Of a stretch of DNA of 64,000 bases, positions 3,703 to 46,241 are shown one piece after another. Every line of letters begins with the position of its first letter. Position 1 is the stretch's first letter. Where the stretch lies: the NCBI GenBank assembly GCA_036561005.1, contig DATBQE010000239.1:885-64884 (forward strand), in the 5' to 3' direction. Origin of the DNA: Burkholderiaceae bacterium. Its GTDB lineage: Bacteria; Pseudomonadota; Gammaproteobacteria; Burkholderiales; Burkholderiaceae_D. A model generated the notes under the pieces. That model had not been told where the DNA came from, did not search any database, and saw only the letters and a program-made list of their open reading frames with translations. Made by a program: the position numbers and the translations under genes.

Positions 3703-4308
3703 CTAAGACCGTTTTTTGGGCGCTGTCGCAGCCTGCATGACGATTATTAGTGTTCGATGATAGCGCGCATTATCTATCGCTCGAACGCCCGTTGCTGAAC
3801 TTTGACGGGCGGTTGGGGGATTGTTTGGCGCGCGATCGGATGGCATGTATACGCCCCGCCCCTGTTTCGAACAATGGGCCGCGCGGGATGCAAGCGCAGT
3901 AGCGCAAACAATTTTGCCCGGGCGTATGCGGTCAATCGCTATTTGCATGCTGAATATGCGATATAACGTATTTGAAGCCGTTGCGTAAGCAATTGCTGCG
4001 CGTTGCACCTCCTCATGTCCCGGCCTATTGTCGTCCGACGTACCTGAGATATTGCGTTCAATCCGCGCACAAAATTTAATGTCCGCAGCGTCAACGCCGG
4101 GAAACCACTTTCCGTAGCCGTTGACGCTCAAGCAGTGCGGCTGCCCATGCGCCAACGCATTCGCAGCGTCTTGCTCTGGGTGCGCGAGATTGAACTGCAG
4201 GAATTCAAGGTCGGATACGACACCTTCCCGGGCACCGGCAAATTGAGGCGTAAGCGTCATCAGGAGGAAGCCGACCGGGACCAGCCTTGCAATTGAATAT
4301 GTTTTCAT
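3703..4308 (-). CDS. hypothetical secreted protein
   Basis: 201-aa ORF with N-terminal MKTYSIARLVPVGFLLMTLTPQFAGA signal-like sequence. No recognisable family. Confidence 0.45.
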   Translation of the reverse strand: MKTYSIARLVPVGFLLMTLTPQFAGAREGVVSDLEFLQFNLAHPEQDAANALAHGQPHCLSVNGYGKWFPGVDAADIKFCARIERNISGTSDDNRPGHEEVQRAAIAYATASNTLYRIFSMQIAIDRIRPGKIVCATALASRAAHCSKQGRGVYMPSDRAPNNPPTARQSSATGVRAIDNARYHRTLIIVMQAATAPKKRS

Positions 4309-4371
4309 GAAAGTTTTGGCACTGGGTTGGCGATCAATTGCAAGCTACCAGGCGTTCAATCTTAGTTCATC

Positions 4372-4770
4372 CTACGGGTCATATTGCTCGACGCGACCAT
4401 CCGACATAACAAGCGTCCATCTTCCCCGGAACGACCTGCGCATGTAAGGCGTGCTTGAACCGTCTTCATTGATCCGGTCCCAGAGTCTAGCGTTTCGCCG
4501 GATGTAGGTTTCTCGGCACGTTGGACATTGAAAGTAACTATGCCGCGATGCGAAGGCCACCAACGCCCATTGCGTAAATGCAGTACCGCAACCACACGGA
4601 GGATACGCCTGCAACTGACGCGAGGCAAGCCAAAGACAGCACCACATCAACATTGCGCCGATGAATCCGCCAAGGAGCGCGCCATCACCATCGGCAGCCT
4701 TCACACCCAATAGGATGCCGGCGATGGCGGAACAAAATATCGCGAAAAATTCGATTCTCTTTCTGATCAT
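4372..4770 (-). CDS. hypothetical membrane protein with C-terminal CxC...CxxC zinc-ribbon-like motif
   Basis: 132-aa ORF with two hydrophobic helices (FFAIFCSAIAGILLGV and GGFIGAMLMWCCLWLA), followed by PPCGCG...FQCPTCRETY. Confidence 0.45.
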   Translation of the reverse strand: MIRKRIEFFAIFCSAIAGILLGVKAADGDGALLGGFIGAMLMWCCLWLASRQLQAYPPCGCGTAFTQWALVAFASRHSYFQCPTCRETYIRRNARLWDRINEDGSSTPYMRRSFRGRWTLVMSDGRVEQYDP

Positions 4771-4889
4771 ATTTTTTGCGCGTGGACCATGTCAATTCGA
4801 AAGGATATTAGATATTTATTCGGTCAAAAACCATGCGCCATCATTTCCGCCAGACTACCAGAAATATTGCATACAATTGCTTTCTTCGG

Positions 4890-4918
4890 CAAAAGGCAAA
4901 AAGTGGCTGCTTTTCGCC
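4890..4918 (-). terminator. candidate intrinsic terminator after the 4976..5245 gene
   Basis: On the minus strand, GGCGAAAAG-CAGCCA-CTTTTTGCC (9-bp stem with one mismatch; plus coordinates 4895-4918) is followed by TTTTG. Confidence 0.4.
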
Positions 4919-4975
4919 ATTGATAAATAAAACCATCGCTGCTTGTTGCGCGTTTCAATCAACACTCAGCCCGCG

Positions 4976-5245
4976 CTAATGTCCGCCCCCATCATGTCCG
5001 CCACCACCGGCATCATTTGGTTCCTGCGGTACGAAAAAATTGTCGCTGTGGCGCGGCGGCTTGCGTTCGCTCTGCAGAATCAAATGACAACAGAGAGCGC
5101 CGAACAGAGGAACAAACCAAATGATAAGAAGCTGGAGGAGCTGTTGAACCCGCTCGTATTCATCCGCGCGAAAAATAATGACGGATACATAGACCTGGTA
5201 TATGACCAAGACTAGTGCACAGCCAACGTATACGCGTTCATTCAT
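4976..5245 (-). CDS. small two-helix membrane protein (PLDc_N-like WFxPxxG motif)
   Basis: ATG at Met5 of track ORF 4976..5257, preceded by GAGAGG. Contains VGCALVLVIYQVYVSVIIF and LLIIWFVPLFGALCCHLIL, with a Gly/His-rich tail GGGGHDGGGH. Confidence 0.45.
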   Translation of the reverse strand: MNERVYVGCALVLVIYQVYVSVIIFRADEYERVQQLLQLLIIWFVPLFGALCCHLILQSERKPPRHSDNFFVPQEPNDAGGGGHDGGGH

Positions 5246-5639
5246 GATGCCTCTCAAAATTGTTTAATCTGTGCACGATTAAACGCGCGTCTGACCAACC
5301 GCTTTTGCCGGCTGGTGATCGTAGCGTAGAGGGCTACGGCCAGAGCCATGTGCTTGGTTCGTTCGCAGCCTCGTGTGATCGGGCACTAGTAGTAGCAGGG
5401 CCGTCCGCATGCCAAGCCGGTGCTGATGATCGAGAATCGCAGCTTGCCGGAGGAGCGAATTCTGCGGTTGACGCGGAAGAATTGAAGAAAGGGCTTACGG
5501 GATTCACCGGGGCGGTGCTCGTCATCATCGGCAGAGCGATGGCGCTACCTTTGCCTGCTTGACGGAGGGCAGCGCCACTTCGGTTTGGCGCATGGAAGGA
5601 CAGCGTCAGGCTGCCTTGCCGCAAGGATCTGGCAATACC

Positions 5640-6761
5640 TTACGATGCCGTCGTGACCGCCTGCTTTTCATAAGTGAAAAAGGAATCCGGCGTGAGCGGA
5701 TCGAGCCTGTTCAGGCTTAAAAAGTGTTGGTAGCTGTCGGATTCAAGGTAGTCCGCGTAGCGTAATGTTTGCGCGCCGTCTGCAGTCTCCATCCCGGCAA
5801 GGTAGCGGCAAAACGTATCGAGCATCAACAAGCTCGGGTCGATGTCTTCCTTCCACAAAAACTGGCCGGCCTCGTTGATCTCCAAAAAAACGTAGTCGCC
5901 ATTCTTGTTGACGACCAGATCGATGCAGCCGAAAGCCAAATTCAAATTGCGGCACAACTGCAGGCAACGCTCCTCGATCACCTGCGGCAAGATGGTTGCC
6001 CGTAAGGGTGTCTTGCCTAGTATGCCGTCGTAGCGCCAGTCGATGGATTGCCCGTCTTTTTGACTGTCTATCGCTGCCGCCAGAACCTTCCGACCGATGA
6101 CGGTAACGCGCAACTCATAGGCTTTCTCGACCAATTCCTGAAAAATGCCCGGACAGCTGCGTATTGCATCTTCGTGCTGCAAGTCACTTTCAGTAAGCGC
6201 GGCAGTTTTCAGAACCACGGCAGAATCGTCTTCCGTGATCCACCCGCCCGGACGAAACGCCTTGTAGATGATTCTTCCCGAGTGCTTCCTGAAAAACGCG
6301 ATCACTTGATGGTAATCGTTGCCGACCATGGTGTCCGGAATGGTGAAACCTGCCTTCTTCGCTTCGCGTAATTGAACGGTTTTTATGCGGGCGCGACGCG
6401 CCGGGCCGGATGGATTGACGTGGAGCGTATGTTCATGATCAAGAGAGTCGATCGCATTGTCGATGAATTCGTCCGATTCGCGCGCGATGACTTTCAGATC
6501 ACCGGGGTGACTGCATGGCATGGCAAGCGGTGTTCCTCGTCGCCTGTGCCATATCACATCAAAAGGCCCCGCGATGTCGCTGCCGCCGATATTGAGGCTC
6601 ATCGATGGCCCGTCTTCCATGCCCAAATGCAGGCACCCGCTGTCGCGGATGGGGAAGTCGGATGTATCCCATATGGTTGCGGCACAATCGAGCTGGCGCA
6701 ATCCCCACATCACCGCCGCGGCGTGTGCGTCGTCTTTTTTCGATACCAATAATATTTTCAT
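5640..6761 (-). CDS. ATP-grasp ligase of the ribosomal-peptide maturase type (MdnB/MdnC, MvdC/MvdD-like)
   Basis: 373-aa ORF. It begins MKILLVS like the microviridin ligases. It has KTVQLREAKKAGFTIPDT, ELRVTVIGRKVLAAAID, IDWRY and GCIDLVVNKNGDYVFLEINEAGQFLW, which match my memory of the MdnC/MvdD C-terminal ATP-grasp motifs (..yGaiDfi.t.dGeyvFLEvNp.GeW.w). It lies 88 nt downstream of a precursor-like sORF. Confidence 0.75.
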   Translation of the reverse strand: MKILLVSKKDDAHAAAVMWGLRQLDCAATIWDTSDFPIRDSGCLHLGMEDGPSMSLNIGGSDIAGPFDVIWHRRRGTPLAMPCSHPGDLKVIARESDEFIDNAIDSLDHEHTLHVNPSGPARRARIKTVQLREAKKAGFTIPDTMVGNDYHQVIAFFRKHSGRIIYKAFRPGGWITEDDSAVVLKTAALTESDLQHEDAIRSCPGIFQELVEKAYELRVTVIGRKVLAAAIDSQKDGQSIDWRYDGILGKTPLRATILPQVIEERCLQLCRNLNLAFGCIDLVVNKNGDYVFLEINEAGQFLWKEDIDPSLLMLDTFCRYLAGMETADGAQTLRYADYLESDSYQHFLSLNRLDPLTPDSFFTYEKQAVTTAS

Positions 6762-6791
6762 CTGGCCGGACGGTCGAAATTGATTGTCGAT

Positions 6792-6827
6792 CGGAACCTG
6801 CCGCCCATGAGAGGACGGACAGGTTCG
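6792..6827 (-). promoter_or_regulatory. intercistronic stem-loop between precursor sORF and ATP-grasp gene
   Basis: GAACCTG (6794-6800) pairs with CAGGTTC (6820-6826), and CCG pairs with CGG next to it with one bulge. The loop is 12 nt. There is no U-tract, so it looks like an mRNA stabiliser/attenuator rather than a full terminator. Confidence 0.35.
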
Positions 6828-6849
6828 AGGCTAACTAACTACGCCGAAT

Positions 6850-7020
6850 TTATTGCGACTCATCCATTGTGGTGGATTTCCACTTGCCGGTAGTTTTGTC
6901 GTAAGTGCCGACAACCGTTTGAATGCCGCCGGCAACCATGGATGCCTCTTCGGCGCTGATTTCGCGACCGACTGTACGACCCAAAATGCGCGTTGTTTCT
7001 TCAGTTTGCTTAGTTTGCAT
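6850..7020 (-). CDS. 56-aa RiPP precursor peptide (double-glycine leader + graspetide-like core); absent from ORF track
   Basis: My translation of the minus strand is MQTKQTEETTRILGRTVGREISAEEASMVAGG/IQTVVGTYDKTTGKWKSTTMDESQ*. GGAG sits 6 nt upstream of the ATG (plus CAT 7018-7020). The stop is TAA (plus TTA 6850-6852). The leader fits the double-glycine consensus (hydrophobic at -4 and -12, Glu at -8, GG at -2/-1). The gene sits between a C39 ABC exporter and an ATP-grasp ligase. Confidence 0.65.
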   Translation of the reverse strand: MQTKQTEETTRILGRTVGREISAEEASMVAGGIQTVVGTYDKTTGKWKSTTMDESQ

Positions 7021-7181
7021 TGACTACTCCGTTACGAAAATTGGCCGTAATGTTCCACGCTCGCCCGACCGGCCAAAAAAATCGGACAAGCAACAACTCT
7101 GTAAAATCTCCGGGCGCGCGAAACGCGGGCCGGGGAATTGAGCAGCCGAACTATGCACTGCTCTCCATCGGGCAAGCTTCA

Positions 7182-9410
7182 TCACGCGCTCTCGGCAACG
7201 CCTGCTTCCGGCGCCTTTCTCAGATCCCTGACAATTTCGCCGTCAACCAGTTCGACAATCCTCTCGGCCGAGTGAATGGTTTCGGGCCGGTGCGCAACGA
7301 TGACCCTCGTCAGCGACAATGCGCCAATCGCCCGATTCACTTCCACCTCTCTCGTCACGTCAAGGTGACTCGTCGCTTCATCCAGAAACAGGATTTGCGG
7401 CCGCTTGTACAAGGCGCGTGCCAGCAATATTCTTTGCTTTTGCCCGCCCGACAGGCTATTGCCCATGTCGCCGATCAGGGTCTGGTACCCCATAGGCATC
7501 GATTTGATATCACCTGCAATCGCGGCCATCCTGGCGCATTCTTCTATGCGTTCCCGATCGGCCTGCAGATCGAAGAAGCAGATGTTGTCGGCGATGGAGC
7601 CGCTGAGCAGCTGGTCGTCCTGCATGACGGCGCCGATCAGCGCACGGTAATTTCGCTGGCCGAGCCGCGCCAGTGAAATGCCGCCGATCAAGACCTCGCC
7701 CTCGCTCGGCGACAGCAATCCCAGCAATAACTTGAGCAAGGTCGTCTTGCCGCAGCCGGAGGCGCCGACAAGCGCCAGCGATTCCCCCTGGCGGATGTGC
7801 AAGTTGAGATTTTTGATGATCCACGGCTCTTGCTCCGAATAGCGGAACGAGAGATTGCGCACTTCGATGCCGGTATCGCCGATCTCCTGCCGGGCCGGCG
7901 GAAGGACAGGAGAACCGGACACGCCTTGCGCCCCGTCCGTCTCCCGGCGCGCCCCTTCCTGCGGCGTCAGAACGATATCCGCCAGACGCTCACCTTGCAG
8001 CGACAGCATTTTCAATTCCTGCCACTTGTCGATCAATGAATAAATGCGGGTGGTGAACGTGATTTTGTAGGCGATGAAGGCATACAGCATACCGACCGAA
8101 AAGACGTTGCCCATCACCAGCAGCGCGCCCAGCCAGATGATGAGAATGTTTTCCGCGCCCGCGATCAAGGTTTGGCCTGCAGTAAACGCGAGTGTGATTT
8201 TTTGCGTAACGATGCTGCGGTTGACAGCCGCCGCGAGCGCATTAAGCCAGCGCGAGCGGCGTTCATCTTCATGATTGAACAGCTTGATCGTCTGGATACC
8301 GCGTATGGATTCCAAAAAAAGACTTTGTTCCCTTGCCTGCAGGCTGATCTGTTCCTCCGTGGCGCGCCGCAACGGCCGGTACATGACCCAGCGCAGCAAT
8401 CCATAAAGCGCAATCGAAAGAAGCACAATCATTGCCAACGACACGCTGTAGATGAACAGCATTGTCAGCGTGGTGACGGCCAACAGACCGTCGAGCAGGG
8501 CCTCGACAAAGCCGATGGAAAGCGTGTGTTGAATCGCCTGGATGGCATTGAAGCGCGAAACCACATCGCCCAGGTGCCGCTTCTCAAAATAATCCATGGG
8601 CAGTCGCAGCAGGTGCGTAAACACATTGCCGACCCATTGGAAATTGAGGTGGGTGCTCATGTACAGTACCGTCCAGGAGCGAAAAACCCCGAGCGCGGTC
8701 TGCACCAGCAGCAGCAATCCGAAACCCAGCGCCAGCATCGCCAGCAGGCTGCGGTCCGCAGATAGAATCGCCGAATCGACCACCCACTGCATGAAAAAAG
8801 GCGTCACCAGCGCAAATGCTTCCAGGGCCAATGCCAGCAGCAGGATTTGCCCGATCGAAGGAAGCAGGCCGACAACTCGCCCGACCATTTCACTCAAGTG
8901 CAAGCGCTGCTTTTCCTGCTTGCGCTGAAAACCCGGCGTGGGGGTCAGTTCCAAGGCAATGCCGGTGAAACAGCGCGATACTTCTTCGAGCGCAATATCC
9001 AGCAAGCCTTTACCCGGGTCATGTATGAGGACGCCGGATACGGCGCCGGTGCGGGTCAAGACGACCTTTTTCAGGACCACGAAATGATTCATGTTCCAAT
9101 GCAGCACGCAAGGCGTGGCGACATGCTGCAACTCGTCAAGTTCGATGCGGATAGGGCGCGCCGCCATGTCCAATGCCGAGGCGATCTCAATCACGCTTTT
9201 TAGCGTGGCGCCGCGCAGGCTCAGGGCAAAACGCTGCCGCAAGCTGAGCAAATCCGTTTCATAGCCATGGTAGCCGGCAATCATTGCCAGGCAGGCCAAT
9301 CCGCATTCAGCCGCCTCGCTTTGCAGGATCATTGGCAATTTCCTGCCGAACCCGAAGTGCAATTTGCCGTGACTCAAAGACTGAAGCAAACTGTTGTGAT
9401 CACTGGCCAC
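7182..9410 (-). CDS. peptidase-C39-domain bacteriocin/microcin ABC exporter (PCAT, CvaB-like)
   Basis: 742-aa ORF with a GTG start. The N-terminal QSEAAECGLACLAMIAGYHG and HWNMNHFVVL are C39 Cys/His motifs, close to CvaB QTETAECGLACLAMICGHFG. It has six TM segments, Walker A GASGCGKTT, signature LSGGQKQR and Walker B ILFLDEATS. Confidence 0.9.
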   Translation of the reverse strand: MASDHNSLLQSLSHGKLHFGFGRKLPMILQSEAAECGLACLAMIAGYHGYETDLLSLRQRFALSLRGATLKSVIEIASALDMAARPIRIELDELQHVATPCVLHWNMNHFVVLKKVVLTRTGAVSGVLIHDPGKGLLDIALEEVSRCFTGIALELTPTPGFQRKQEKQRLHLSEMVGRVVGLLPSIGQILLLALALEAFALVTPFFMQWVVDSAILSADRSLLAMLALGFGLLLLVQTALGVFRSWTVLYMSTHLNFQWVGNVFTHLLRLPMDYFEKRHLGDVVSRFNAIQAIQHTLSIGFVEALLDGLLAVTTLTMLFIYSVSLAMIVLLSIALYGLLRWVMYRPLRRATEEQISLQAREQSLFLESIRGIQTIKLFNHEDERRSRWLNALAAAVNRSIVTQKITLAFTAGQTLIAGAENILIIWLGALLVMGNVFSVGMLYAFIAYKITFTTRIYSLIDKWQELKMLSLQGERLADIVLTPQEGARRETDGAQGVSGSPVLPPARQEIGDTGIEVRNLSFRYSEQEPWIIKNLNLHIRQGESLALVGASGCGKTTLLKLLLGLLSPSEGEVLIGGISLARLGQRNYRALIGAVMQDDQLLSGSIADNICFFDLQADRERIEECARMAAIAGDIKSMPMGYQTLIGDMGNSLSGGQKQRILLARALYKRPQILFLDEATSHLDVTREVEVNRAIGALSLTRVIVAHRPETIHSAERIVELVDGEIVRDLRKAPEAGVAESA

Positions 9411-10701
9411 TAAGCTTGCCTTTCAAACTGTACAGAGGTTCGAATACCCACTCCAGCAAAGAGCGACGGTCTTGCAGGATATCGGCGTCGAGATGCATGC
9501 CCGCCGTCAGCCCCTGCGCTTTGCCATAGGCGGTGACGGTTTGCTTGTTCAGTGCGACTCTTACCCGGTACATGCCATCGTTGTTCGCTGCGTCTGCCAG
9601 GCCGGCAGGAATGTCGCCGGGGGCCAGCGCCGTGCGCGATACGTCTTGCACCACGCCCTGGTATTGACCGAATTTCTGGTAGGGATAGGCCGCAAAGCGG
9701 ATCGATACTTTCTGCCCGGACTCGATAAAGCCGACGGCGCGACTTGGCACATACAGTTGCGCCTCCAGGTTGGCGTTCGCCGGCAAAATGGTCAGCAGCG
9801 TCTGGTTCCCGGCCATTTGGCCGGGATCGGCGAGGATTGCCGTCACGGTGCCGGCCTGCGGCGCGGTCAGATAGAACTGCCGATGTGCCTGCGTGCTGAC
9901 GGTTTGTTCCTCCAATTCCTGGGATTGACGTTCCAGCTGATTTTGGTCGCGCTGGTTTTTGCTGGGCAACGTGGCCAGCTCGCCTTGCGCGTTGCTCAAA
10001 TCGCGGGCCACGCCAAGACGACTGCGCTGCAAGACCTGCAGGCGACTTTGCTGATCCAGCATCTCGTCTTGTTTCTGCTGCAGTGCGATCGGTGAAATGA
10101 AATTCTTTTCGGCCAGTTGCTGATGACGCTGGAGCTGCGCCTGTGCCGAGGAAAGCCGCGATTGTTGCGTCGCAATTTCCTGGTCCAACTGAAGCAACTC
10201 TGCCTGCAGGCTTGCAATGCTGCGCGAAAGTTGCTCGGCCTGCTTGCCGGCGATATCGTTTTGATGCGCGCGCTCGTCCTGCAGGCTTTGCTGCCGCGCT
10301 CTGAGGCTGGCGAGGACGGCGGCGCTGCTGTCGATGCCCTTGGCGCCGGCCGTTTCGGAAACCGGCGCGAGTTTCAAATCGGTGGACAACGCAAACAACA
10401 CATCACCGGCTTGCACAACCTGGCCCTCTTTGACGCGCCGCTCCAGGATCACGCCGACCTGCGACGACTGGATTTTGATCAACCCGGCATCGGGTGTCAG
10501 CAAACCAATCGCCTGGGTGCGTTTGGTATATTGAGCCAGGCAGAGAAACATCAGCAATGTACCGGTGCTGATGAGTGCAAAAAGGGTGAGAAAACGGAAA
10601 GATGGCGGGCGTATCAGGACAATTTGCCCCAGCCATTGGTGCTGCTTTGCCTGCTGGACTTCTGCGCGAAAAAGCGGCGGCGGACTTGCGGCACTACTCA
10701 T
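9400..10701 (-). CDS. HlyD-family membrane fusion/secretion adaptor (CvaA-like)
   Basis: Single N-terminal TM (FRFLTLFALISTGTLLMFLCLA), a long Gln/Leu-rich coiled coil, and a C-terminal beta-barrel part. It overlaps the ABC gene start by 11 nt. I prefer the ATG at 10701 (MSSAAS...) over the TTG at 10713 used by the track. Confidence 0.85.
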   Translation of the reverse strand: MSSAASPPPLFRAEVQQAKQHQWLGQIVLIRPPSFRFLTLFALISTGTLLMFLCLAQYTKRTQAIGLLTPDAGLIKIQSSQVGVILERRVKEGQVVQAGDVLFALSTDLKLAPVSETAGAKGIDSSAAVLASLRARQQSLQDERAHQNDIAGKQAEQLSRSIASLQAELLQLDQEIATQQSRLSSAQAQLQRHQQLAEKNFISPIALQQKQDEMLDQQSRLQVLQRSRLGVARDLSNAQGELATLPSKNQRDQNQLERQSQELEEQTVSTQAHRQFYLTAPQAGTVTAILADPGQMAGNQTLLTILPANANLEAQLYVPSRAVGFIESGQKVSIRFAAYPYQKFGQYQGVVQDVSRTALAPGDIPAGLADAANNDGMYRVRVALNKQTVTAYGKAQGLTAGMHLDADILQDRRSLLEWVFEPLYSLKGKLSGQ

Positions 10702-10713
10702 CCAATATTCCAA

Positions 10714-10860
10714 GTCAAGTTAAATAAGTACCTTTTTTGATATACTAATCGATAACAAATGAAGTGAAGCAACTTATTACTCTTTAATTAAAAAAACAAA
10801 ACAAAACATCAATTTAGTGAATAAATTCAAATTAAGTTCTGAGTTTTTAATTCAGCCAAG
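10714..10860. promoter_or_regulatory. very AT-rich upstream region (probable promoter region of the export/RiPP operon)
   Basis: My direct count for 10741-10800 is 13 G+C in 60 nt, a sharp contrast with the surrounding GC-rich DNA. It lies immediately upstream of the first gene of the minus-strand operon. I could not place exact -35/-10 hexamers with confidence. Confidence 0.35.
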
Positions 10861-10988
10861 AATATCGTTCATATTTTGATGGCATATTTTCGCCCGGTCG
10901 TTGACGGCCCTACCCTTGACTGAGGCAATTGCACACACCCGCATTCTGGCGCGGCCTTCAGGGCAACGATGCGGCAGGCGATTGAACG

Positions 10989-11105
10989 CTAACTGGAATT
11001 GGGGCAATCTCGCGGCGTAAGCTGATGGACCAGCGACGTCGGATGCTCGCTGATGCGCTGCAAGACATCCCACACGCATAACCCGGTGCGAGGCTTTTGC
11101 GATGC
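10989..11105 (-). mobile_element. IS66-family transposase C-terminal remnant (degenerate)
   Basis: The minus-strand frame reads ...ASQKPRTGLCVWDVLQRISEHPTSLVHQLTPRDCPNSS*. DVLxRIxEHP followed by xxxxLxP resembles the conserved IS66 Tnp C-terminus (..WL.DVL.RI.EHP..RIDELLPWNW) as I remember it. Upstream the frame is broken by stops, so only a fragment remains. Confidence 0.35.
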
Positions 11106-11438
11106 GCGCGGATGGTGGGGCAACCTGGAAATTGGACACGTCTTGTCAAGCATGTGACCGCGCGCAGCTGAAGCTTTCGTGTCTGCGCACTATTCCAGCC
11201 TGCTTGACGCTTGTTTGCCCGCCTCCACGGCGTGCGTTGCGTGTCTGTCGGCCGAGGCATCCATGACATTGCATATTGCCCCAAACGCCGGAAAAATTCC
11301 CCTGCTCCATAGCCGTACAGTTGCCGTAAAAATCGGCGCGCTTGTGAAGGTGCCCGCCACCCAGCCTCGCTTGCCTCTATGACGCTGCTCTGCCACTGCC
11401 GCCTGGCTCCAGCCCCCCTTGCAAGAACCTGTTCGCGA

Positions 11439-12314
11439 TCACGCAATCCTATCGAGCGCGCTCACATCTTCAGCGGAAAGCACAATCGATTGCGCTGCAA
11501 GGTTTTGCCGCAAGTGAGCGAGCGACGATGTGCCCGGGATAAGCAGGATATTCGGCGCGCGCTGCAAAAGCCAGGCGAGCGCCGCCTGCATGGGTGTGAT
11601 GCCGTTGCGAGCGGCAACGGACGACAGGCTTGACGATTGCAGCGGCGTAAAGCCGCCAAGTGGAAAATAAGGCACATAGGCCGTGCCGTCGCGGGCAAGA
11701 TCGGTGATCAGCGCATCGTCGCTGCGGTGCGCGAGATTGTAGTGGTTCTGCACGCAGACAATCGGGGCGATGCGCCGCCCTTCCTCGATCTGCGCCCGCG
11801 TCACGTTGCTTAAACCAATGTGGCGCACCAGACCCTGCCGTTGCAGTTCCGCCAGAACCGTGAGCGGCGCTTCCAGCGAACCTTCTGCCGGATGGTGCGG
11901 GTTAATCATGCTGCGCAGGTTGACCACATCGAGAACATCACGCCCCAGATTGCGCAGATTGTCGTGCACTGCCTGCGTCAATTCCTCGCGCGACAATGCG
12001 GCAAGCCACGATCCATCCGCGCCGCGGCGCGCGCCGATCTTGCTGACGATGACGAGGCCATCGCGGTACGGATGCAGCGCTTCTCGAATGATCTGATTGG
12101 TCACGTGCGGGCCATAGAAATCGCTGGTGTCGATATGATTGACGCCGCATTCGACCGCTTCGCGCAGCACCGCCAGCGCCGCATCGCGGTCCCTGGGCGG
12201 CCCGAATACGCCGGGGCCGGCAAGCTGCATCGCGCCGTAGCCGAGGCGGTTCACATGAAAGGCGCCGAGTTTGAAGGTGGCGGAATTTGCGGCGGGATTG
12301 TTGGCATGGGTCAT
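11439..12314 (-). CDS. aldo/keto reductase family oxidoreductase
   Basis: 291-aa ORF. GYGAMQLAGPGVFGP, GVNHIDTSDFYGP, HIGLSNV and IPGTSSLAHLRQN are typical AKR motifs. Confidence 0.85.
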   Translation of the reverse strand: MTHANNPAANSATFKLGAFHVNRLGYGAMQLAGPGVFGPPRDRDAALAVLREAVECGVNHIDTSDFYGPHVTNQIIREALHPYRDGLVIVSKIGARRGADGSWLAALSREELTQAVHDNLRNLGRDVLDVVNLRSMINPHHPAEGSLEAPLTVLAELQRQGLVRHIGLSNVTRAQIEEGRRIAPIVCVQNHYNLAHRSDDALITDLARDGTAYVPYFPLGGFTPLQSSSLSSVAARNGITPMQAALAWLLQRAPNILLIPGTSSLAHLRQNLAAQSIVLSAEDVSALDRIA

Positions 12315-16041: not shown

Positions 16042-19000
16042 CTACTTGGCCTTGGCCACGGCCTTGTTCTGCGTCACCAACGGCTGCAGCGCCGGAATCA
16101 GGGACTTGAGCAATTGCACGGTCAAGGCGCTGGTGAAATTATAATCGGCCGCATATGGTTCGTGCACATAGGCCGTGATGGTGCCGAAGTATCTGTCGCC
16201 GATAAGGAAGACAAAAGTGGCGGAGCGGTTGACCGCGCGCGATTCGATGAGCCTGCCGCCCGGCGCATAGGTTTCGTAGCGCTGGTCGCCGGTGCCGGTC
16301 TTGCCGCCGATTTCGATGGCCGTGCCGTCCTTTTGCCCGAAGCCGTTGCGCAGGCGCACGCCGGTGCCGCCCTGCACCACGTCGATGAGAGAGCGGCGCA
16401 CGATGTCGGTCAATTCTTCCGGCAGCATGCGCTTGCCGCCCGGCGGCACCTGCGCGAAATGGGTTTCATACGGCGTGCCCTTGGCGAATTGCATGCCTTG
16501 CAATTTGCGCACCGGCATGAGCATGCCGCGATTGACGATGATGCCCATCAATTCGGCCAACGAGGCGGGCCGGTCGCCCGATGCGCCGAGCGCGCTGGCG
16601 ATGGACGGCGTCAACGCGCCGAAGGGGTAGCCCAGGCGGCGCCAGGCCGCGCCGATTTCCTGGAAGGCTTCCAGCTCCAGCAACTGGCGTATGCGCGTCT
16701 CCTGGGTGCGTTTGTTGTGCGTCTTGAACAGCCACTCGTAGACTTGCTGGCGCTCGTCGCGGCTGGCTTCGGCGCATTGGGCAAAGGTGGCGTCCGGGTG
16801 CGCGCGCAGATAGCCGACCAGCCACAGTTCAAGCGGATGCACGCCGGCCAGGTAGCCGCGGTCATTCAATGAATATTGCTCGATGCCGAATTTGTCGTAC
16901 AGGGTTTGCAGGGTCTGGTCGTTCAGTTCCGCTTCGGGGAATTCGGCACGCATCAATGCGCTGAAGCGCGCGATATCGGCTTGCGGTTCCAGGCTGCGGT
17001 AAATGATGGCCAGGCGCTTGGGGCGTGCGTGGATGGAATCGATCAGCATCTGTTCCGCTTCGTCGCTGTTCTTGCCCGCATACTTCTTGTAGAAGCGACC
17101 GAGAAATTCCTTGCCTTCCTTGTCGGCAAAGCGCGACAGCGCGGCGCGGCGCACGGTGTCGCCCGGCTCGGCGGCGTTGTTCTGGTCGTCGTCCCGATCA
17201 TCGTTGCCGGCGTTCTTCTTGCCGCGCTTTTTCCCTTTTTTAGCGGCATCCGCTGCGCTGTGCCGGGCCTCCCCGGCCGGTGTCGCGGGCCCCGCTGCAT
17301 CGGCCAGGCGCTGGATGTTGGCGCTGGAAGTCTTGAATTCGTAGTAGCGCACGATGTCGCGCATCAGGCGCACGAACACCAGATTGACGGAGTGCTGGAA
17401 ACCCTCGCGCACAGTCATTGTGCGGTGGTTCTCTTCGGGCTCGAAGTTTTCGAATTGCTGCTCGCCGCCGCCGGTGAAAAATACTTCCGCCGGATTGCCG
17501 GAATAGGTGCGCAGCATGGCCGCTTCCAGCGTATCGGCCAGCGTGCTGTGCGGGTTGGCGGCAAAATAATCGAGCGCCCATTTGCTCAGCACGTCTTCAT
17601 GGTCGACCGGCACGCGCGCCACATCGGCTGGCTCCATGTCGGCATAAAATTTGTGCAGGTTGGTGATGATTTCCAGGTAGGTGATCAGCGTGCGCAGCTT
17701 GGCCGTGGAACCGAGATTGAGGCGCGCGCCGCTGTTGATGTCGAAAGGCTGGTCGAGGTTGTCGGTCTGCACGCGCAGGAAGTTGGCGTCGGCGCCGCGC
17801 TCGAACAGGGTGAAGCTGAAGGTCAAGCGCCCCGGATTGTCGCCCGGCGCCAGCATGTTGTGGCCGAACAGCTCCGCCGCCTTGGCGTGGGCCGGGTCGC
17901 GCAGGTCGCGCAGCACCTGCGTCACGGCTTGCTGGATGTCGGCGTCGAGCGTGGTTTGCACCGACATGTCGATGCGGTCGAGGTCATACAGATGCGACGT
18001 GTGCAACAAGCCGGAAAGGTCGGCGCGCAGGGTATTGACCGCCTTGCGCGAGACGAACGAGCCGGCCGGCTCCGACAGCGCGCCCTGATACAAATCGAGC
18101 TTCAGCGGCAAGGCAGCCTTTTCCAGCGCCGGCGAGACGATGCCGGCCGCGCCCAGCAGGCGCAAATGGTTATTGGTCATTTGCATCAGGGCCGGCGCGC
18201 CTTCGCGCAGAAAATAGGAAGGGCGGCGTTGCGCAATCATCAACGACAGGGCCTGTTTATAGGCCAGCGCCAGCGCAGCCAGATGTTGCGCGTCTGTTTC
18301 CTTCGGCGCATTTTTCAGCAAGGTGTTGGTATCGGCAAAATCGCGCCCATACCAGGCCCACATGCCGTCGCCCAGCCCGTTGATCTCGCCATAGCCGGCC
18401 TTGGCCGTCAGCGGCACGGTGTTCAGGTAGGCCACCACGGTCTGGCGCCGGCTCGCCGTCGTGTCCGGCCCATGCAGGTAGGCGCGGATCGAGGCCGATT
18501 CCATCTGCAGCAGTTTTTCCTTGGCCGAGGTGGTGCGGCCGTCGGGCGAATGACGGTATTTTTCAATCTGCGTCACCAGCGTGCTGGCGCCGGGCGCTTC
18601 GTGCGAAGGGCTAATTGCGTGCAAGCCCTGATCGAGCACGGCGCGGTCGAGCCGGCTCCAGTTGACGGCCGGGTTGCGGTTGGGGTGCGCCGGGTCGAGC
18701 AATTCACGGTCTTCAATGAACAGCAGCGTATCGGTCAGCAATTTGGGCACGGCGTCGAAATTGGCGTACACGCGCTCGGGCGAACGCGCGCTGTACAACA
18801 GTTTCTCTTTGTTATCATACAGGTCGAGACCGGCCTGATCCTTTTCCGGATAGATGGGCGGCAATGGCAGGTTCAACAACTCGGGCGACATGCGCGCCTG
18901 CTGCGTGACGACGAAATTCTGCTGGTTCAGCAACTTGGTGTATTCGGGAATTTTGCTATAACCAAGCCGCTCGTCATAGGGCCCGGTTTTGGGAAAGCGG

Positions 19001-19275
19001 ATCGCCTTGCTCGGCCCCTCACCCATCTTGTAGCGCAACCCGGCGGCGATCCTGGAGAAATATTGGGCCTGGTAATGCGACGAGCGCATTTCGTGCAGCA
19101 CCATCCCTGCAGCGATGGCCAGCAAAATGAATAGGATGAGCAGGATCTTGAACTTGAGGGTGCGGAAAAAAGACACTATAGCGGCGCAGTCGGTGTTGAT
19201 GATGGCGATGATGACAAGAAAAGCTCTCCGGCTTCGCCCCGGTCGCATCGCGCAGCGGGAATGGAAGCCACGCAC
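16042..19275 (-). CDS. atypical large class-A penicillin-binding-protein-like protein (GT51 transglycosylase + transpeptidase motifs)
   Basis: 1077-aa ORF. GT51-like motifs are FIEDRELLDP, GASTLVTQIEK and AYLNTVPLTAKAGYGEINGLGDG. Transpeptidase-like motifs are STAK (SxxK), SVN (SxN) and KTGTG. N-terminal TM is KFKILLILFILLAIAAGMVL. It has a Lys/Asp-rich insert AAKKGKKRGKKNAGNDDRDDDQ. The start is uncertain (alternatives 19251 ATG, 19176 GTG). Confidence 0.75.
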   Translation of the reverse strand: MRGFHSRCAMRPGRSRRAFLVIIAIINTDCAAIVSFFRTLKFKILLILFILLAIAAGMVLHEMRSSHYQAQYFSRIAAGLRYKMGEGPSKAIRFPKTGPYDERLGYSKIPEYTKLLNQQNFVVTQQARMSPELLNLPLPPIYPEKDQAGLDLYDNKEKLLYSARSPERVYANFDAVPKLLTDTLLFIEDRELLDPAHPNRNPAVNWSRLDRAVLDQGLHAISPSHEAPGASTLVTQIEKYRHSPDGRTTSAKEKLLQMESASIRAYLHGPDTTASRRQTVVAYLNTVPLTAKAGYGEINGLGDGMWAWYGRDFADTNTLLKNAPKETDAQHLAALALAYKQALSLMIAQRRPSYFLREGAPALMQMTNNHLRLLGAAGIVSPALEKAALPLKLDLYQGALSEPAGSFVSRKAVNTLRADLSGLLHTSHLYDLDRIDMSVQTTLDADIQQAVTQVLRDLRDPAHAKAAELFGHNMLAPGDNPGRLTFSFTLFERGADANFLRVQTDNLDQPFDINSGARLNLGSTAKLRTLITYLEIITNLHKFYADMEPADVARVPVDHEDVLSKWALDYFAANPHSTLADTLEAAMLRTYSGNPAEVFFTGGGEQQFENFEPEENHRTMTVREGFQHSVNLVFVRLMRDIVRYYEFKTSSANIQRLADAAGPATPAGEARHSAADAAKKGKKRGKKNAGNDDRDDDQNNAAEPGDTVRRAALSRFADKEGKEFLGRFYKKYAGKNSDEAEQMLIDSIHARPKRLAIIYRSLEPQADIARFSALMRAEFPEAELNDQTLQTLYDKFGIEQYSLNDRGYLAGVHPLELWLVGYLRAHPDATFAQCAEASRDERQQVYEWLFKTHNKRTQETRIRQLLELEAFQEIGAAWRRLGYPFGALTPSIASALGASGDRPASLAELMGIIVNRGMLMPVRKLQGMQFAKGTPYETHFAQVPPGGKRMLPEELTDIVRRSLIDVVQGGTGVRLRNGFGQKDGTAIEIGGKTGTGDQRYETYAPGGRLIESRAVNRSATFVFLIGDRYFGTITAYVHEPYAADYNFTSALTVQLLKSLIPALQPLVTQNKAVAKAK

Positions 19276-19505
19276 CGATTGTAAGGGGTTTCCCAGTCAT
19301 TTTGAAGATTTGTCGCGTATGACCAACAGCGTTGGGCACCTACTTTCACTTCCACCCCGAGGACGGCCAGAAGATGTCTCCGTTTTCGCTTTCTCGGAAT
19401 GATTTTCACATGTTGATCCAACCAGCAATCAATTTTTCGGGATTTGCATCATGCCGCGCAATTCCTGGCTTAATATTGGGTTTCCTCAGGTTACGAAGAC
19501 TTATC

Positions 19506-22196: not shown

Positions 22197-22293
22197 ATTT
22201 TCCTTGAGCCTGCCTTGAGCCTGCCGTGAATCTGCCATGAGCCACAGCCTACATATTGAGATTGCCCCACAAAATCGTTCCCGGAAACCCGTC

Positions 22294-44720: not shown

Positions 44721-46241
44721 TCAATCGTCCTTCGCCCCATCAATCCCCAGTTCATGAATCTTGCGTGTAATGGTATTGCGCCCTATTCCCAGCCGCACGG
44801 CCGCATCGTTCTTGCGCCCATGCGTATGCTTGAGCGCCGCCTTGATCAGCGTGGATTCGAACAGGCGCCCCAGTGCGTCCATCACTTCGGGTTGGCCGGC
44901 ACTGAGCATTTGTGCGGCTTCGCTTTCCAATAGCGTGACCCAGTTCGACTTGTCGAATTTGTCGGCCAGCAGCGCGTCGGAACCATTGGTGCCGCCGATT
45001 GCAGCGGGCATGCCGGCAGGCGCATGCTGCGGCGCCGGCTGCGCATAGCTGGCTGGCTGACTGAGCGGCGCGGCATAGGCTTGCGGCTGCGTGTCGATCA
45101 GTTCGGGCGGCAGGTCCTTGGTTTCCACGGTCTGACCCGGCGCCATGACGGTGATCCAGTTGCACAGGTTTTCCAGTTGGCGCACATTGCCGGGGAAGTC
45201 GAGCAGGCTGAGGAATTGCATGGCGTTGTCGGACAGGCGCTTGGCTTCCACGCCGAGCTGCTTGGCGCTTTGCGCCAGGAAAAAGCGCGCCAGGATGGGG
45301 ATGTCTTCGCGCCGCTCGCGCAAGGACGGCAGGCGAAGGCGGATGACGTTCAAGCGATGGTACAAGTCTTCGCGGAACAGGCCGTCGCGCACGCGCTGCT
45401 CCAGGTTTTGATGGGTTGCCGCAATCACGCGCACGTTGGCCTTCAAGGGCTGATGGCCGCCGACACGATAGAAGTGCCCGTCCGACAGCACGCGCAGCAA
45501 ACGTGTCTGCAGGTCGAACGGCATGTCGCCGATCTCATCGAGAAACAGCGTGCCGTCTTCGGCCTGCTCGAAGCGGCCGCGCCGCGTTGCCTGCGCGCCG
45601 GTGAACGCGCCGCGCTCATGGCCGAACAGTTCCGACTCCAGCAATTCCTTTGGAATGGCTGCCGTGTTGAGGGCGATGAACGGTTGCGAGCCGCGCGGGC
45701 TGTGCTTGTGCAGCGCACGCGCGACCAGTTCCTTGCCCGAGCCCGATTCGCCGGTAATGAGCACCGTGACGTTCGATTGCGAAAGCCGACCGATGGCGCG
45801 GAACACGTCCTGCATGGCTGGCGCCTGGCCGAGAATTTCCGGCGGCGTAATGGTCGATTGCTCGACGATGGCTTCACGCAGGCTTTCTTCAAGCGCACGC
45901 CGGATCAGCTCGACGGCCTTGTCCACGTCGAACGGTTTGGCGAGGTATTCGAAGGCGCCGCCCTGGAAGGCCGCCACGGCGGAGTCGAGGTCGGAGAATG
46001 CGGTGATGATGATGACCGGCAGGCCGGGATGGCGCGCCTTCACTTCCTGCAGCAGTTTGAGCCCCGATTCACCCGGCATGCGGATGTCGGACACCAGCAC
46101 CTGCGGCAAGCCGCTGTTCAAGGCTTCAATGGCATCGCGCGCATTGGAAAAGCTTCGCGTTGCCAGGTTTTCTCGCGCCAGTGCTTTTTCAAGCACCCAG
46201 CGGATCGACTCGTCGTCGTCTACGATCCAGATTGGTTTCAT
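44721..46241 (-). CDS. ntrC: nitrogen regulation protein NR(I), sigma54-dependent response regulator NtrC
   Basis: 506 aa. REC MKPIWIVDDDESIRWVL..DIRMPGESG, AAA+ GESGSGKE and GAFTGA, ESELFGHE, and a C-terminal Fis-type HTH AAVRLGIGRNTITRKI. It lies downstream of ntrB and glnA. Confidence 0.93.
   Translation of the reverse strand: MKPIWIVDDDESIRWVLEKALARENLATRSFSNARDAIEALNSGLPQVLVSDIRMPGESGLKLLQEVKARHPGLPVIIITAFSDLDSAVAAFQGGAFEYLAKPFDVDKAVELIRRALEESLREAIVEQSTITPPEILGQAPAMQDVFRAIGRLSQSNVTVLITGESGSGKELVARALHKHSPRGSQPFIALNTAAIPKELLESELFGHERGAFTGAQATRRGRFEQAEDGTLFLDEIGDMPFDLQTRLLRVLSDGHFYRVGGHQPLKANVRVIAATHQNLEQRVRDGLFREDLYHRLNVIRLRLPSLRERREDIPILARFFLAQSAKQLGVEAKRLSDNAMQFLSLLDFPGNVRQLENLCNWITVMAPGQTVETKDLPPELIDTQPQAYAAPLSQPASYAQPAPQHAPAGMPAAIGGTNGSDALLADKFDKSNWVTLLESEAAQMLSAGQPEVMDALGRLFESTLIKAALKHTHGRKNDAAVRLGIGRNTITRKIHELGIDGAKDD

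What the first reader, a model, noticed from the sequence alone, without database searches (positions are those of the whole stretch)
5640..10713. Candidate graspetide-type RiPP operon exported by a microcin-V-like (CvaAB-type) system
Seen in sequence:
- Four co-directional minus-strand genes have short gaps or overlaps.
- The first is a HlyD/CvaA-like adaptor (9400..10701).
- The second is a C39-peptidase ABC exporter (7182..9410). Its QSEAAECGLACLAMIAGYHG is almost the CvaB motif.
- The third is a 56-aa sORF (6850..7020).
- The fourth is an ATP-grasp ligase (5640..6761) with MdnC/MvdD-like motifs (LRVTVIG, IDWRY, GCIDLVVNKNGDYVFLEINEAGQFLW).

Established knowledge:
- ATP-grasp ligases of the microviridin family install side-chain omega-ester (Thr/Ser-Asp/Glu) and omega-amide (Lys-Asp/Glu) macrocycles in graspetides.
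- C39 PCATs cleave double-glycine leaders during export.
- CvaAB/TolC exports class II microcins.

Inference:
- The locus makes a macrocyclised peptide secreted like a class II microcin.
- That would combine graspetide chemistry with microcin-style leader and export logic in a Gram-negative.
- No TolC-like gene and no obvious immunity gene are in the operon.
- I cannot say from sequence alone whether this precursor class has been described.
Basis: partly seen in the sequence, partly recalled or inferred. Interest (0 to 1): 0.88.

Follow-up and report, generated by a model that had tools for sequence, protein, structure and literature searches.

The report
Graspetide peptide operon with dedicated exporter
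This is a real four-gene cluster for a small ribosomal peptide that an ATP-grasp enzyme probably cross-links into rings and a peptidase-transporter pair cuts and secretes; this cluster type is already described, and only this particular peptide is new.

Summary
Four co-directional minus-strand genes lie at the stated coordinates: a HlyD/CvaA-type adaptor, a C39-peptidase ABC exporter, a 56-aa ORF and an ATP-grasp ligase.

- **Ligase.** It matches graspetide maturase models at about 1e-49, against 9e-10 for RimK. Its only solved-structure relatives are graspetide ligases (MdnC, CdnC, MdnB, AMdnB, PsnB).
- **Precursor.** The short ORF is genuine. A profile built only from leaders outside the window's own clade, including published group-8/cluster-75 leaders, finds it as the sole hit among 816 window ORFs (E 5e-8). 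Its leader ends in Gly-Gly.
- **Synteny.** Relatives at 40-51% ligase identity, mostly Oxalobacteraceae, keep a short ORF beside the ligase. The leader (RILGRTVGREIS-EE---VAGG) is conserved and the cores are unrelated. Ten of 16 clade loci also keep the adaptor and exporter.

The implied novelty does not hold. Makarova 2022 lists the C39 transporter and HlyD among the genes most often linked to graspetide ligases. Ayikpoe 2022 showed three dehydrations and C39 (LahT150) leader cleavage for a Legionella relative with the same leader type.

This is a new, uncharacterised member of a known kind. Its 24-residue core matched nothing but its own database entry in a 5.8-billion-protein search. Ring chemistry, activity and the outer-membrane partner remain untested.

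The parts
9400..10713 (-). HlyD/CvaA-type membrane-fusion (periplasmic adaptor) protein, 437 aa from TTG 10713. The first ATG is at 10701.
   Evidence: ORF. (TIGR01843 type_I_hlyD 7.6e-41, below its curated cut-off). (HlyD_3, HlyD_D23, Biotin_lipoyl_2). (22% identity over the full length to the HlyD-family protein encoded just upstream of E. coli cvaB, E 5e-34).
7182..9410 (-). Peptidase-containing ABC transporter (PCAT), 742 aa: an N-terminal C39 domain, six-helix ABC membrane domain and nucleotide-binding domain.
   Evidence: Peptidase_C39 1.7e-30, ABC_membrane 3.6e-38, ABC_tran 3e-32. (best model NHLM_micro_ABC1, 4.6e-142, below cut-off). (PCAT1 structures, about 2e-99, full length). (41% identity to E. 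coli CvaB).
8937..9338 (-). C39 double-glycine peptidase domain of the PCAT (residues about 25-158). Gln30, Cys36, His109 and Asp131 are all present.
   Evidence: The best solved-structure match is LahT150 (6mpz, 6e-22). The QxxxxxCG, NHFVVL and DP motifs are aligned. The roles of these residues come from established knowledge of C39 peptidases.
6850..7020 (-). Precursor peptide gene, 56 aa. The leader is residues 1-32 (6925-7020), MQTKQTEETTRILGRTVGREISAEEASMVAGG. The core is residues 33-56 plus the stop codon (6850-6924), IQTVVGTYDKTTGKWKSTTMDESQ.
   Evidence: ORF. (conserved leader with variable core next to homologous ligases). (only hit among 816 window ORFs to a profile of 31 leaders from other clades, E 5.4e-8). 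(annotated only as a hypothetical protein; the whole-precursor search returned only its own entry).
7027..7030 (-). Shine-Dalgarno-like GGAG, 6 nt upstream of the precursor ATG.
   Evidence: Read directly from the sequence.
6794..6826 (-). GC-rich hairpin (13 pairs) in the 88-nt gap between the precursor stop and the ligase start. It has no T-run. It is inferred to be a partial terminator or an mRNA-stabilising element that sets the precursor-to-enzyme ratio.
   Evidence: structure of the 106-nt stretch; -32.8 kcal/mol, z -2.2. (a strong hairpin at the same position, with unrelated sequence, in most of 17 related loci).
5640..6761 (-). ATP-grasp macrocyclase of the graspetide (MdnB/MdnC/MvdD) superfamily, 373 aa.
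   Evidence: MvdD 7.5e-49, SAV_5884 1.6e-48, MvdC 5.1e-44, RimK 8.7e-10. (all six solved-structure matches are graspetide ligases; MdnC 1.3e-33 over residues 4-311). (invariant K127, K167, E216, R218, D241, R243, D281, E294, N296 across the clade).

Best explanation
The locus is a self-contained graspetide (omega-ester/omega-amide RiPP) gene cluster.

**Proposed pathway**
1. The 56-aa precursor is translated.
2. The N-terminal half of its leader (RILGRTVGRE) recruits the ATP-grasp ligase.
3. The ligase uses ATP to activate Asp/Glu side chains of the core as acyl phosphates. It joins them to Thr/Ser hydroxyls or Lys amines. The core has three acidic residues (D9, D21, E22), so at most three side-chain rings can form.
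4. The C-terminal half of the leader (ISAEEASMVAGG) is a double-glycine export signal.
5. The C39 domain of the ABC transporter cuts after Gly32. The transporter, the HlyD-type adaptor and an outer-membrane channel encoded elsewhere then secrete the 24-residue cross-linked peptide.

**Shown here:** gene identities, active-site residues, leader homology to experimentally processed relatives, and conserved synteny.

**Inferred:** the number and positions of rings, the division of labour within the leader, the TolC-type partner, and the biological activity. By analogy with characterised graspetides (my background knowledge, not checked here), a secreted protease inhibitor is somewhat more likely than a bacteriocin.
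For: - **Ligase.** It scores 7.5e-49 to MvdD, 1.6e-48 to SAV_5884 and 5.1e-44 to MvdC, against 8.7e-10 for RimK. Its only PDB relatives at E<=1e-3 are MdnC, CdnC, MdnB, AMdnB, 9bou and PsnB.
- **Precursor.** A profile of 31 leaders from other clades, including the published Gra-7A/B and cluster-75 sequences, hits the sORF at 5.4e-8. The next window ORF scores 0.57.
- **Leader shape.** It fits the double-glycine consensus LSxxELxxIxGG at I-12, S-11, E-8, V-4 and GG (read directly; the consensus is established knowledge).
- **Synteny.** In 14 of 16 loci of the window's clade a leader-type sORF lies beside the ligase on the same strand. Ten of the 16 also carry adaptor and PCAT, in varying gene order.
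- **Exporter.** The C39 Gln/Cys/His/Asp are intact, and the best structural match is LahT150. The PCAT is 41% identical to CvaB.
- **Experimental precedent.** Legionella Gra-7A/B have the same leader type. Their ATP-grasp dehydrated both three times in E. coli, and LahT150 cleaved the Gra-7A leader (PMC9576775).
Against: - The ligase falls below the curated cut-off of every NCBIfam graspetide equivalog (166 bits against 475, 350 and 425). It therefore belongs to no curated subfamily.
- No mass-spectrometric or expression data exist for this clade.
- Some relatives' cores have only one Ser/Thr/Lys donor, for example the first Janthinobacterium precursor. Ring number therefore cannot be transferred between members.
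- Six of 16 clade loci show no exporter in the DNA held; one of them (L007) is only a 3.4-kb contig.
- No TolC-type gene was found among the 21 window ORFs scanned with Pfam. That scan was not exhaustive.
- The published leader signature Phhx(1,2)h (PMC8939145) is absent from this leader.
Confidence: 0.85

Rival explanations
1. The peptide is a class-II-microcin-like bacteriocin. The cross-linked 24-mer would kill related bacteria, and immunity would be encoded nearby or supplied by the exporter.
For: The export pair is homologous to CvaAB: 41% and 22% identity. Cores are hypervariable behind a conserved leader, as in diversifying bacteriocin families. Two small hydrophobic same-strand ORFs lie downstream, at 4976-5257 and 4372-4770.
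Against: The downstream ORFs have no Pfam match. None of them gave a tblastn match in any of the 79 related loci searched. The ColV locus, by contrast, has cvi next to cvaC. As far as I know (background knowledge, not checked here), characterised graspetides are mostly protease inhibitors rather than antibiotics. No activity data exist.
Confidence: 0.25
2. The exporter pair and the ligase-precursor pair are unrelated neighbours. The PCAT would export a different double-glycine peptide, and the graspetide would stay intracellular or leave by another route.
For: The Undibacterium and Massilia relatives, and three metagenomic loci, have precursor plus ligase without an adjacent PCAT.
Against: The four genes recur together in at least 14 loci across several clades (10 of them in the window's own clade), despite changes in gene order. 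The precursor is the only leader-type ORF in the 64-kb window. It carries a good double-glycine signal. Gaps are short or overlapping, and all four genes share one strand.
Confidence: 0.07
3. The ATP-grasp protein is a RimK/glutathione-synthetase-type ligase acting on a protein or metabolite, and the 56-aa ORF is not its substrate.
For: JGI and NCBI annotate many homologues as 'glutathione synthase/RimK-type ligase-like ATP-grasp enzyme'. Pfam gives only a sub-threshold RimK match, 0.007.
Against: The RimK family model scores 8.7e-10 against 7.5e-49 for MvdD. No RimK or GshB structure matches at E<=1e-3, whereas six graspetide ligases do. The adjacent short ORF with a conserved leader is syntenic in 14 of 16 clade loci.
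Confidence: 0.03

Closest known systems
Group 8 graspetides / precursor cluster 75 (Legionella, Xanthomonas, Janthinobacterium sp. HH01), including Gra-7A/B of Legionella pneumophila (Makarova 2022, PMC8939145; Ayikpoe 2022, PMC9576775)
   Same: The leader architecture is the same: h-[AG]-x-x-h-[AG]-[RK]-E-h-[ST]-x-E-E-h-x-x-V-[SA]-G-G, detectable by profile. The Legionella rubrilucens and L. erythra loci carry the same four-gene module of precursor, ATP-grasp, HlyD and C39 PCAT. Experiments showed three dehydrations and C39 (LahT150) leader removal for Gra-7A.
   Different: The ligases are only 33% identical and fall in a separate clade of the neighbour-joining tree. The window core lacks the cluster-75 pattern of T...T...D..D..D-W at the C-terminus. 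The leader has Gly where cluster 75 has Ala/Tyr (ILGRTVG against VLAYxLA).
Lysobacter graspetides (Gra-8 of L. capsici, listed as group 18 or 19 in different parts of Ayikpoe 2022; Makarova cluster 859)
   Same: Lysobacter and Arenimonas ligases (L014, L015, L062) are among the nearest neighbours outside the window's own clade, at 39-41% identity. The Gra-8 leader, TRLIGRMVAIEVS, resembles RILGRTVGREIS. Three dehydrations were observed experimentally.
   Different: The Lysobacter-type loci fetched here have no C39 domain in the adjacent ABC gene and no HlyD. Their precursors lack a clear Gly-Gly site and have a conserved EIDR-DNGDQIP core that the window lacks.
Microviridin pathway (MdnA with MdnB/MdnC; MvdC/MvdD)
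   Same: The ATP-grasp fold and chemistry are homologous. MdnC is the best solved-structure match, at 1.3e-33 over residues 4-311, with the ELRVTV, DWR, GxID and FLEIN-G-F-W motifs aligned.
   Different: There is one ligase here rather than two. No acetyltransferase domain was detected in any of the four operon proteins. The PFFARFL leader motif is absent, and the leader is a double-glycine type. Scores are far below the MvdC and MvdD equivalog cut-offs.
Colicin V (microcin V) export system CvaAB-TolC of E. coli
   Same: The PCAT is a full-length homologue of CvaB at 41% identity, and the adaptor is homologous to the HlyD-family protein at the CvaA position. The genes are adjacent and overlapping in the same order. 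The substrate has a double-glycine leader.
   Different: The ColV cargo, as annotated, has an adjacent immunity gene cvi, and no ligase gene appears in the 8.4-kb stretch shown. Here the cargo gene is paired with a macrocyclase and no immunity gene is detectable.

Membership tests
Graspetides (ATP-grasp-modified RiPPs) | An ATP-grasp ligase of the MdnB/MdnC/MvdD superfamily, rather than the RimK/GshB type | tested here: met
   MvdD 7.5e-49, SAV_5884 1.6e-48, MvdC 5.1e-44, against RimK 8.7e-10.: only graspetide ligases match among solved structures.
Graspetides (ATP-grasp-modified RiPPs) | A short precursor gene beside the ligase, with a leader conserved across relatives and a variable core | tested here: met
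   14 of 16 clade loci.: independent leader profile, E 5.4e-8, the only hit among 816 ORFs.
Graspetides (ATP-grasp-modified RiPPs) | A core containing Thr/Ser/Lys donors and Asp/Glu acceptors | tested here: met
   Read directly from the core IQTVVGTYDKTTGKWKSTTMDESQ: 11 donors and 3 acceptors. Enrichment over chance was not tested.
Graspetides (ATP-grasp-modified RiPPs) | Side-chain macrolactone or macrolactam cross-links in the mature peptide | not testable with these tools
   This needs co-expression and mass spectrometry. The precedent is in relatives only (PMC9576775).
NCBIfam equivalogs MvdD (TIGR04184), MvdC (TIGR04185), SAV_5884 (TIGR04187), grasp-with-spasm (TIGR04192) | A whole-protein score at or above the curated cut-off | tested here: not met
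   166.6 against 475, 150.7 against 425, 165.5 against 350, and 88.9 against 230 bits.
Group 8 / cluster 75 graspetides | Leader of the cluster-75 type ending in Gly-Gly | tested here: met
Group 8 / cluster 75 graspetides | Conserved core pattern: Thr donors followed by spaced Asp residues, with a C-terminal D-[WFY] | tested here: not met
   The window core ends in MDESQ and shows no such spacing (one search compared).
Group 8 / cluster 75 graspetides | Ligase in the same similarity cluster as the Legionella and Xanthomonas enzymes | tested here: inconclusive
   The ligase is 33% identical to the Legionella rubrilucens and L. erythra enzymes and sits in a separate neighbour-joining clade. The published similarity-network thresholds (Ramesh 2021) could not be consulted.
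Peptidase-containing ABC transporters (PCAT; CvaB/ComA/LahT type) | An N-terminal C39 domain with catalytic Cys and His (plus Gln and Asp), not the Cys-less C39-like domain of HlyB | tested here: met
   Peptidase_C39 1.7e-30.: Q30, C36, H109 and D131 aligned to LahT150 and PCAT1.
Peptidase-containing ABC transporters (PCAT; CvaB/ComA/LahT type) | ABC membrane domain and nucleotide-binding domain in the same polypeptide | tested here: met
CvaAB-TolC-type three-part exporter of Gram-negatives | A membrane-fusion protein encoded next to the PCAT | tested here: met
CvaAB-TolC-type three-part exporter of Gram-negatives | An outer-membrane TolC-family channel | tested here: inconclusive
   No OEP domain was found in the 21 window ORFs scanned. 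The scan was not exhaustive and the rest of the genome is not available. From my background knowledge, tolC is also unlinked to cvaAB in E. coli.
Class II microcins | A dedicated immunity gene adjacent to the structural gene | tested here: not met
   No conserved small gene accompanies the module in the 79 related loci searched. The downstream ORFs have no family match. The ColV locus has cvi.

The most novel reading that the evidence does not exclude
The clade, dominated by Oxalobacteraceae and other Burkholderiales, may be a graspetide group that has not been catalogued. It would be defined by the Gly-rich leader RILG[RHK]xVG[RKQ]E[IL][ST]xEE and by ligases 40-51% identical to this one.

In this reading one conserved leader and ligase service very different cores, which are exchanged between strains as a mobile, diversifying set of secreted peptides. 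The window's Lys- and Thr-rich core would then have a ring topology (mixed lactone and lactam) not yet seen.

Neither these leaders nor these cores occur in the Makarova 2022 supplementary sets that could be searched. A database search with the precursor returned only its own entry.
Probability: 0.3. Interest if true: 0.4.

Novelty: new member of a known kind. Interest (0 to 1): 0.3.

Why it matters
The locus adds an unannotated and probably functional RiPP cluster to a Burkholderiaceae metagenome-assembled genome, where both the ligase and the precursor are labelled 'hypothetical protein'. It also supplies a new 24-residue core for a ligase family known to accept very different cores behind one leader.

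That tolerance is useful for peptide engineering. The conserved leader could serve as a genome-mining probe for further precursors, which gene callers often miss.

It does not change what is known about how graspetides are made or exported.

Tried and rejected
- **Single-protein genome scan.** A scan of genome contigs with the ligase alone found nothing. A 24-sequence alignment was too divergent to seed patterns. An 8-sequence alignment worked.
- **Ramesh 2021.** This graspetide classification could not be read by PMC id or DOI. Assignment to a numbered group is therefore left open.
- **Literature searches.** Searches for graspetide with Burkholderiales, or with 'group 8', added nothing beyond Makarova 2022.
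- **Precursor database search.** Searching the 56-aa precursor against the 5.8-billion-protein collection returned only its own entry. Short leaders are below that tool's reach, so relatives had to be found by local six-frame ORF extraction and a profile.
- **Regulatory-site scan.** The promoter and terminator consensus scan gave counts no higher than in shuffled sequence. No promoter or terminator is claimed.
- **Downstream ORFs as immunity genes.** I considered ORFs 4976-5257, 4372-4770 and 3703-4308. This was rejected as unsupported: they have no family match and are not conserved near any relative.
- **RimK-type function.** Rejected.
Full report
**1. The observation**

The six-frame ORF list shows four co-directional minus-strand ORFs.

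- 9400-10713 is 437 aa from a TTG.
- 7182-9410 is 742 aa from a GTG and overlaps the upstream stop by 11 nt.
- 6850-7020 is 56 aa from an ATG.
- 5640-6761 is 373 aa from an ATG.

The short ORF has a GGAG 6 nt before its ATG. The region from about 4000 to 11500 has 52-59% G+C, against 60-68% in the flanks.

**2. The proteins**

*Adaptor.* It has HlyD_3, HlyD_D23 and Biotin_lipoyl_2 domains. It matches type_I_hlyD at 7.6e-41.

*Exporter.* It has Peptidase_C39 (1.7e-30), ABC_membrane and ABC_tran domains.
- Its best NCBIfam model is the NHLP bacteriocin exporter NHLM_micro_ABC1, at 4.6e-142 and below the cut-off.
- Its best solved-structure matches are PCAT1 structures, at about 2e-99 over the full length.
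- The isolated C39 domain matches LahT150 best (6mpz, 6e-22). Gln30, Cys36, His109 and Asp131 are aligned, so this is an active peptidase domain rather than a Cys-less HlyB-type domain.

*Comparison with ColV export.* I fetched a real E. coli ColV locus (L080).
- The exporter is 41% identical to CvaB over 699 residues.
- The adaptor is 22% identical over its full length to the HlyD-family protein encoded just upstream of cvaB, the CvaA position (E 5e-34).
- The label 'CvaAB-type' is therefore justified by homology.

*Ligase.*
- It scores 7.5e-49 to MvdD, 1.6e-48 to SAV_5884, 5.1e-44 to MvdC and 3.8e-25 to the grasp-with-spasm maturase. RimK scores only 8.7e-10.
- All of these scores are below the curated cut-offs, so the enzyme belongs to none of the curated subfamilies.
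- Among solved structures only graspetide ligases match: MdnC (1.3e-33, residues 4-311), CdnC, MdnB, AMdnB, 9bou and PsnB.
- Residues invariant across 24 clade members include K127, K167, E216, R218, D241, R243, D281, E294 and N296. D281, E294 and N296 lie in the GCID and FLEIN motifs that align with MdnC. In ATP-grasp enzymes generally, these positions bind Mg-ATP (established knowledge).

**3. The short ORF is a real precursor**

The source is a MAG labelled 'Burkholderiaceae bacterium'. There the ligase and the short ORF are both annotated as hypothetical proteins.

*First relatives.* The closest ligase homologues are 43-51% identical. They come from Janthinobacterium, Undibacterium and Duganella, and each has a 55-62-aa ORF just upstream. 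Translating these ORFs shows a shared leader, RILGRTVGREISAEEA--VAGG or -GA, followed by unrelated cores.

*Wider survey.* A genome-collection scan with an 8-sequence alignment returned 75 loci. An iterated leader profile, run over all 25-130-aa ORFs of those loci, found 42 leader-type ORFs. All lie on the ligase strand, most of them immediately upstream of the ligase and a few immediately downstream.

*Control against circularity.* I rebuilt the profile from 31 leaders taken only from outside the window's clade. These included the published Gra-7A, Gra-7B and cluster-75 sequences. Against all 816 ORFs of at least 25 aa in the 64-kb window, the 6850-7020 ORF scored E 5.4e-8 and the next best scored 0.57.

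*Further loci.* Five more metagenomic loci of the clade each carry a leader-type ORF beside the ligase, again with unrelated cores.

*Leader signal.* The last 12 leader residues, ISAEEASMVAGG, fit the double-glycine consensus LSxxELxxIxGG at five of six key positions (read directly; the consensus is established knowledge).

**4. Synteny of the whole module**

tblastn with the window's proteins, together with the called genes of the extra loci, gave the following.
- HlyD plus a C39 PCAT lie next to the ligase in 10 of 16 loci of the window's clade. They also do so in the Legionella rubrilucens and L. erythra loci and in the 'RILARQLARPLT' clade.
- Gene order differs between loci: the exporter is upstream in Janthinobacterium and downstream in Duganella and Legionella. 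This argues for a functional link rather than inherited adjacency.
- The three same-strand ORFs downstream of the ligase (4976-5257, 4372-4770, 3703-4308) have no Pfam match. None gave a match in any of the 79 related loci searched.
- No conserved immunity gene is therefore evident.
- No OEP/TolC domain was found in the 21 window ORFs scanned. That scan is incomplete.

**5. Position among known graspetides**

A neighbour-joining tree of 70 ligases puts the window in a clade dominated by Oxalobacteraceae: Janthinobacterium, Massilia, Undibacterium, Duganella and Pseudoduganella, plus MAGs.
- Its neighbours are a Lysobacter/Arenimonas clade and the 'RILARQLARPLT' clade.
- The Legionella clade is more distant, at 33% identity.

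*Makarova 2022 (PMC8939145).*
- The C39 peptidase/ABC transporter heads its list of genes associated with graspetide ligases (433 loci).
- HlyD also ranks high (191 loci).
- Its cluster-75 precursors from Legionella, Xanthomonas and Janthinobacterium sp. HH01 have leaders such as ERVLAYxLAKELSxEELxxVSGG.
- The paper notes that leader similarity persists between precursors with dissimilar cores.

*Ayikpoe 2022 (PMC9576775).*
- Both were dehydrated three times.
- LahT150 localised the modifications to the Gra-7A core; digestion of Gra-7B failed.
- Lysobacter capsici Gra-8 also gave three dehydrations.

The architecture and logic of the window's locus are therefore already documented and partly validated by experiment.

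*What is not documented, as far as I could check.*
- The Oxalobacteraceae-type leaders and cores are absent from the Makarova supplementary files that are held. One of those files is truncated, and gapped alignments could hide strings.
- A database search with the precursor returned only its own entry.
- Ramesh 2021 could not be read, so a group number cannot be assigned or excluded.

**6. Mechanism**

The most likely pathway has four steps.
1. The leader recruits the ligase. This is inferred by analogy with the microviridin PFFARFL-MdnC interaction.
2. The ligase activates Asp/Glu side chains with ATP and joins them to Thr/Ser or Lys. The core has three acidic residues, so up to three rings can form.
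3. The C39 domain cleaves after Gly32.
4. The PCAT, the adaptor and an unlinked outer-membrane channel export the 24-mer.

Gene identities, active sites, leader homology and synteny are shown here. Ring number and positions, the outer-membrane partner and the activity are inferred. No immunity gene is evident, and characterised graspetides are, to my knowledge, mostly protease inhibitors (background knowledge, not checked here). I therefore rate a protease-inhibitor or other non-lethal extracellular role somewhat above a bacteriocin role, with low certainty.

**7. An extra anatomical feature**

A 13-pair GC-rich hairpin (6794-6826, minus strand) sits between the precursor stop and the ligase start. 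The 106-nt stretch containing it folds at -32.8 kcal/mol, z -2.2.
- A strong hairpin of unrelated sequence occupies the same position in most of 17 related loci (14 of 17 at z <= -2.1). Some of these are followed by T-runs.
- The window's hairpin has no T-run.
- This conservation of position suggests an attenuator or mRNA-stabilising element that raises the precursor-to-enzyme ratio, as in other RiPP operons. That is inference.
- The generic promoter and terminator scan was uninformative.

**8. Verdict**

Novelty is modest: a new, uncharacterised member, possibly a new subgroup, of a known class with a known export arrangement.

Noticed in passing
window 6794-6826 (-); also L001 7906-8000, L003 7825-8000, L004 7933-8000, L008 6941-7000, L010 6920-7000, L016 6952-7000, L026 898-969, L039 6948-7000, L043 1985-2041: A strong GC-rich hairpin lies directly after the precursor stop codon and before the ligase in most of 17 related loci (14 of 17 at z <= -2.1). 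Its position is conserved but its sequence is not. Some copies carry a T-run; the window's does not. It may be an attenuator or an mRNA-stability element.
   Followed up: partly
window about 4000-11500: G+C is 52-59% here, against 60-68% in the flanks. Homologous modules sit in unrelated genomic contexts: next to LysR and SDR genes, next to the fts/mur cluster, and next to an integrase in L084. This suggests a horizontally mobile cassette.
   Followed up: partly
window 4976-5257 (-), 4372-4770 (-), 3703-4308 (-): Three same-strand ORFs lie downstream of the ligase: 93 aa with two hydrophobic helices, 132 aa with hydrophobic helices and a CxxC pair, and 201 aa with a signal-peptide-like N-terminus. 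None has a Pfam match, and none is conserved near any related ligase. They could be an immunity or accessory function, or they may not be genes.
   Followed up: partly
L001 7479-7664 and 7717-7905; L008 6482-6682 and 6698-6940: Janthinobacterium sp. CG3 and Massilia sp. SR12 each carry two tandem precursors with different cores. These cores share a G-T-x-P-[FH] motif, and three of the four also share a C-terminal D-x-x-x-D-P-T-[LQ]. This hints at a conserved Thr-to-Asp ring in that sub-branch. The window core has V-G-T at a similar distance from the cleavage site.
   Followed up: no
window 19332-22196 (+) and 22237-24990 (+): Two large tandem paralogous proteins (954 and 917 aa) carry DUF4214 and many NHL / teneurin-NHL beta-propeller repeats.
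   Followed up: no
window 16876-19134 (+) and 16042-19275 (-): A 752-aa ORF with no Pfam match lies opposite a 1077-aa antisense ORF in a high-GC stretch. Which strand codes was not resolved.
   Followed up: no
window 38699-41614 (+), 44721-46241 (-), 51526-56139 (-): A cluster of signalling genes: a hybrid histidine kinase with an Hpt domain (971 aa), a sigma-54-dependent response regulator (506 aa) and a 1537-aa multi-PAS hybrid kinase.
   Followed up: no
L085 10559-11911: One metagenomic relative has an OEP (TolC-family) gene 3.5 kb from the ligase. It sits beside a multicopper oxidase gene, so it more likely belongs to a copper-resistance system than to the peptide exporter.
   Followed up: no
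L012 (Pseudoduganella guangdongensis) and L007: No leader-type ORF was detected beside these two ligases of the clade. L012 nevertheless has HlyD and a PCAT. The precursor may be too divergent, shorter than 25 aa, or (for the 3.4-kb contig L007) off the contig.
   Followed up: no
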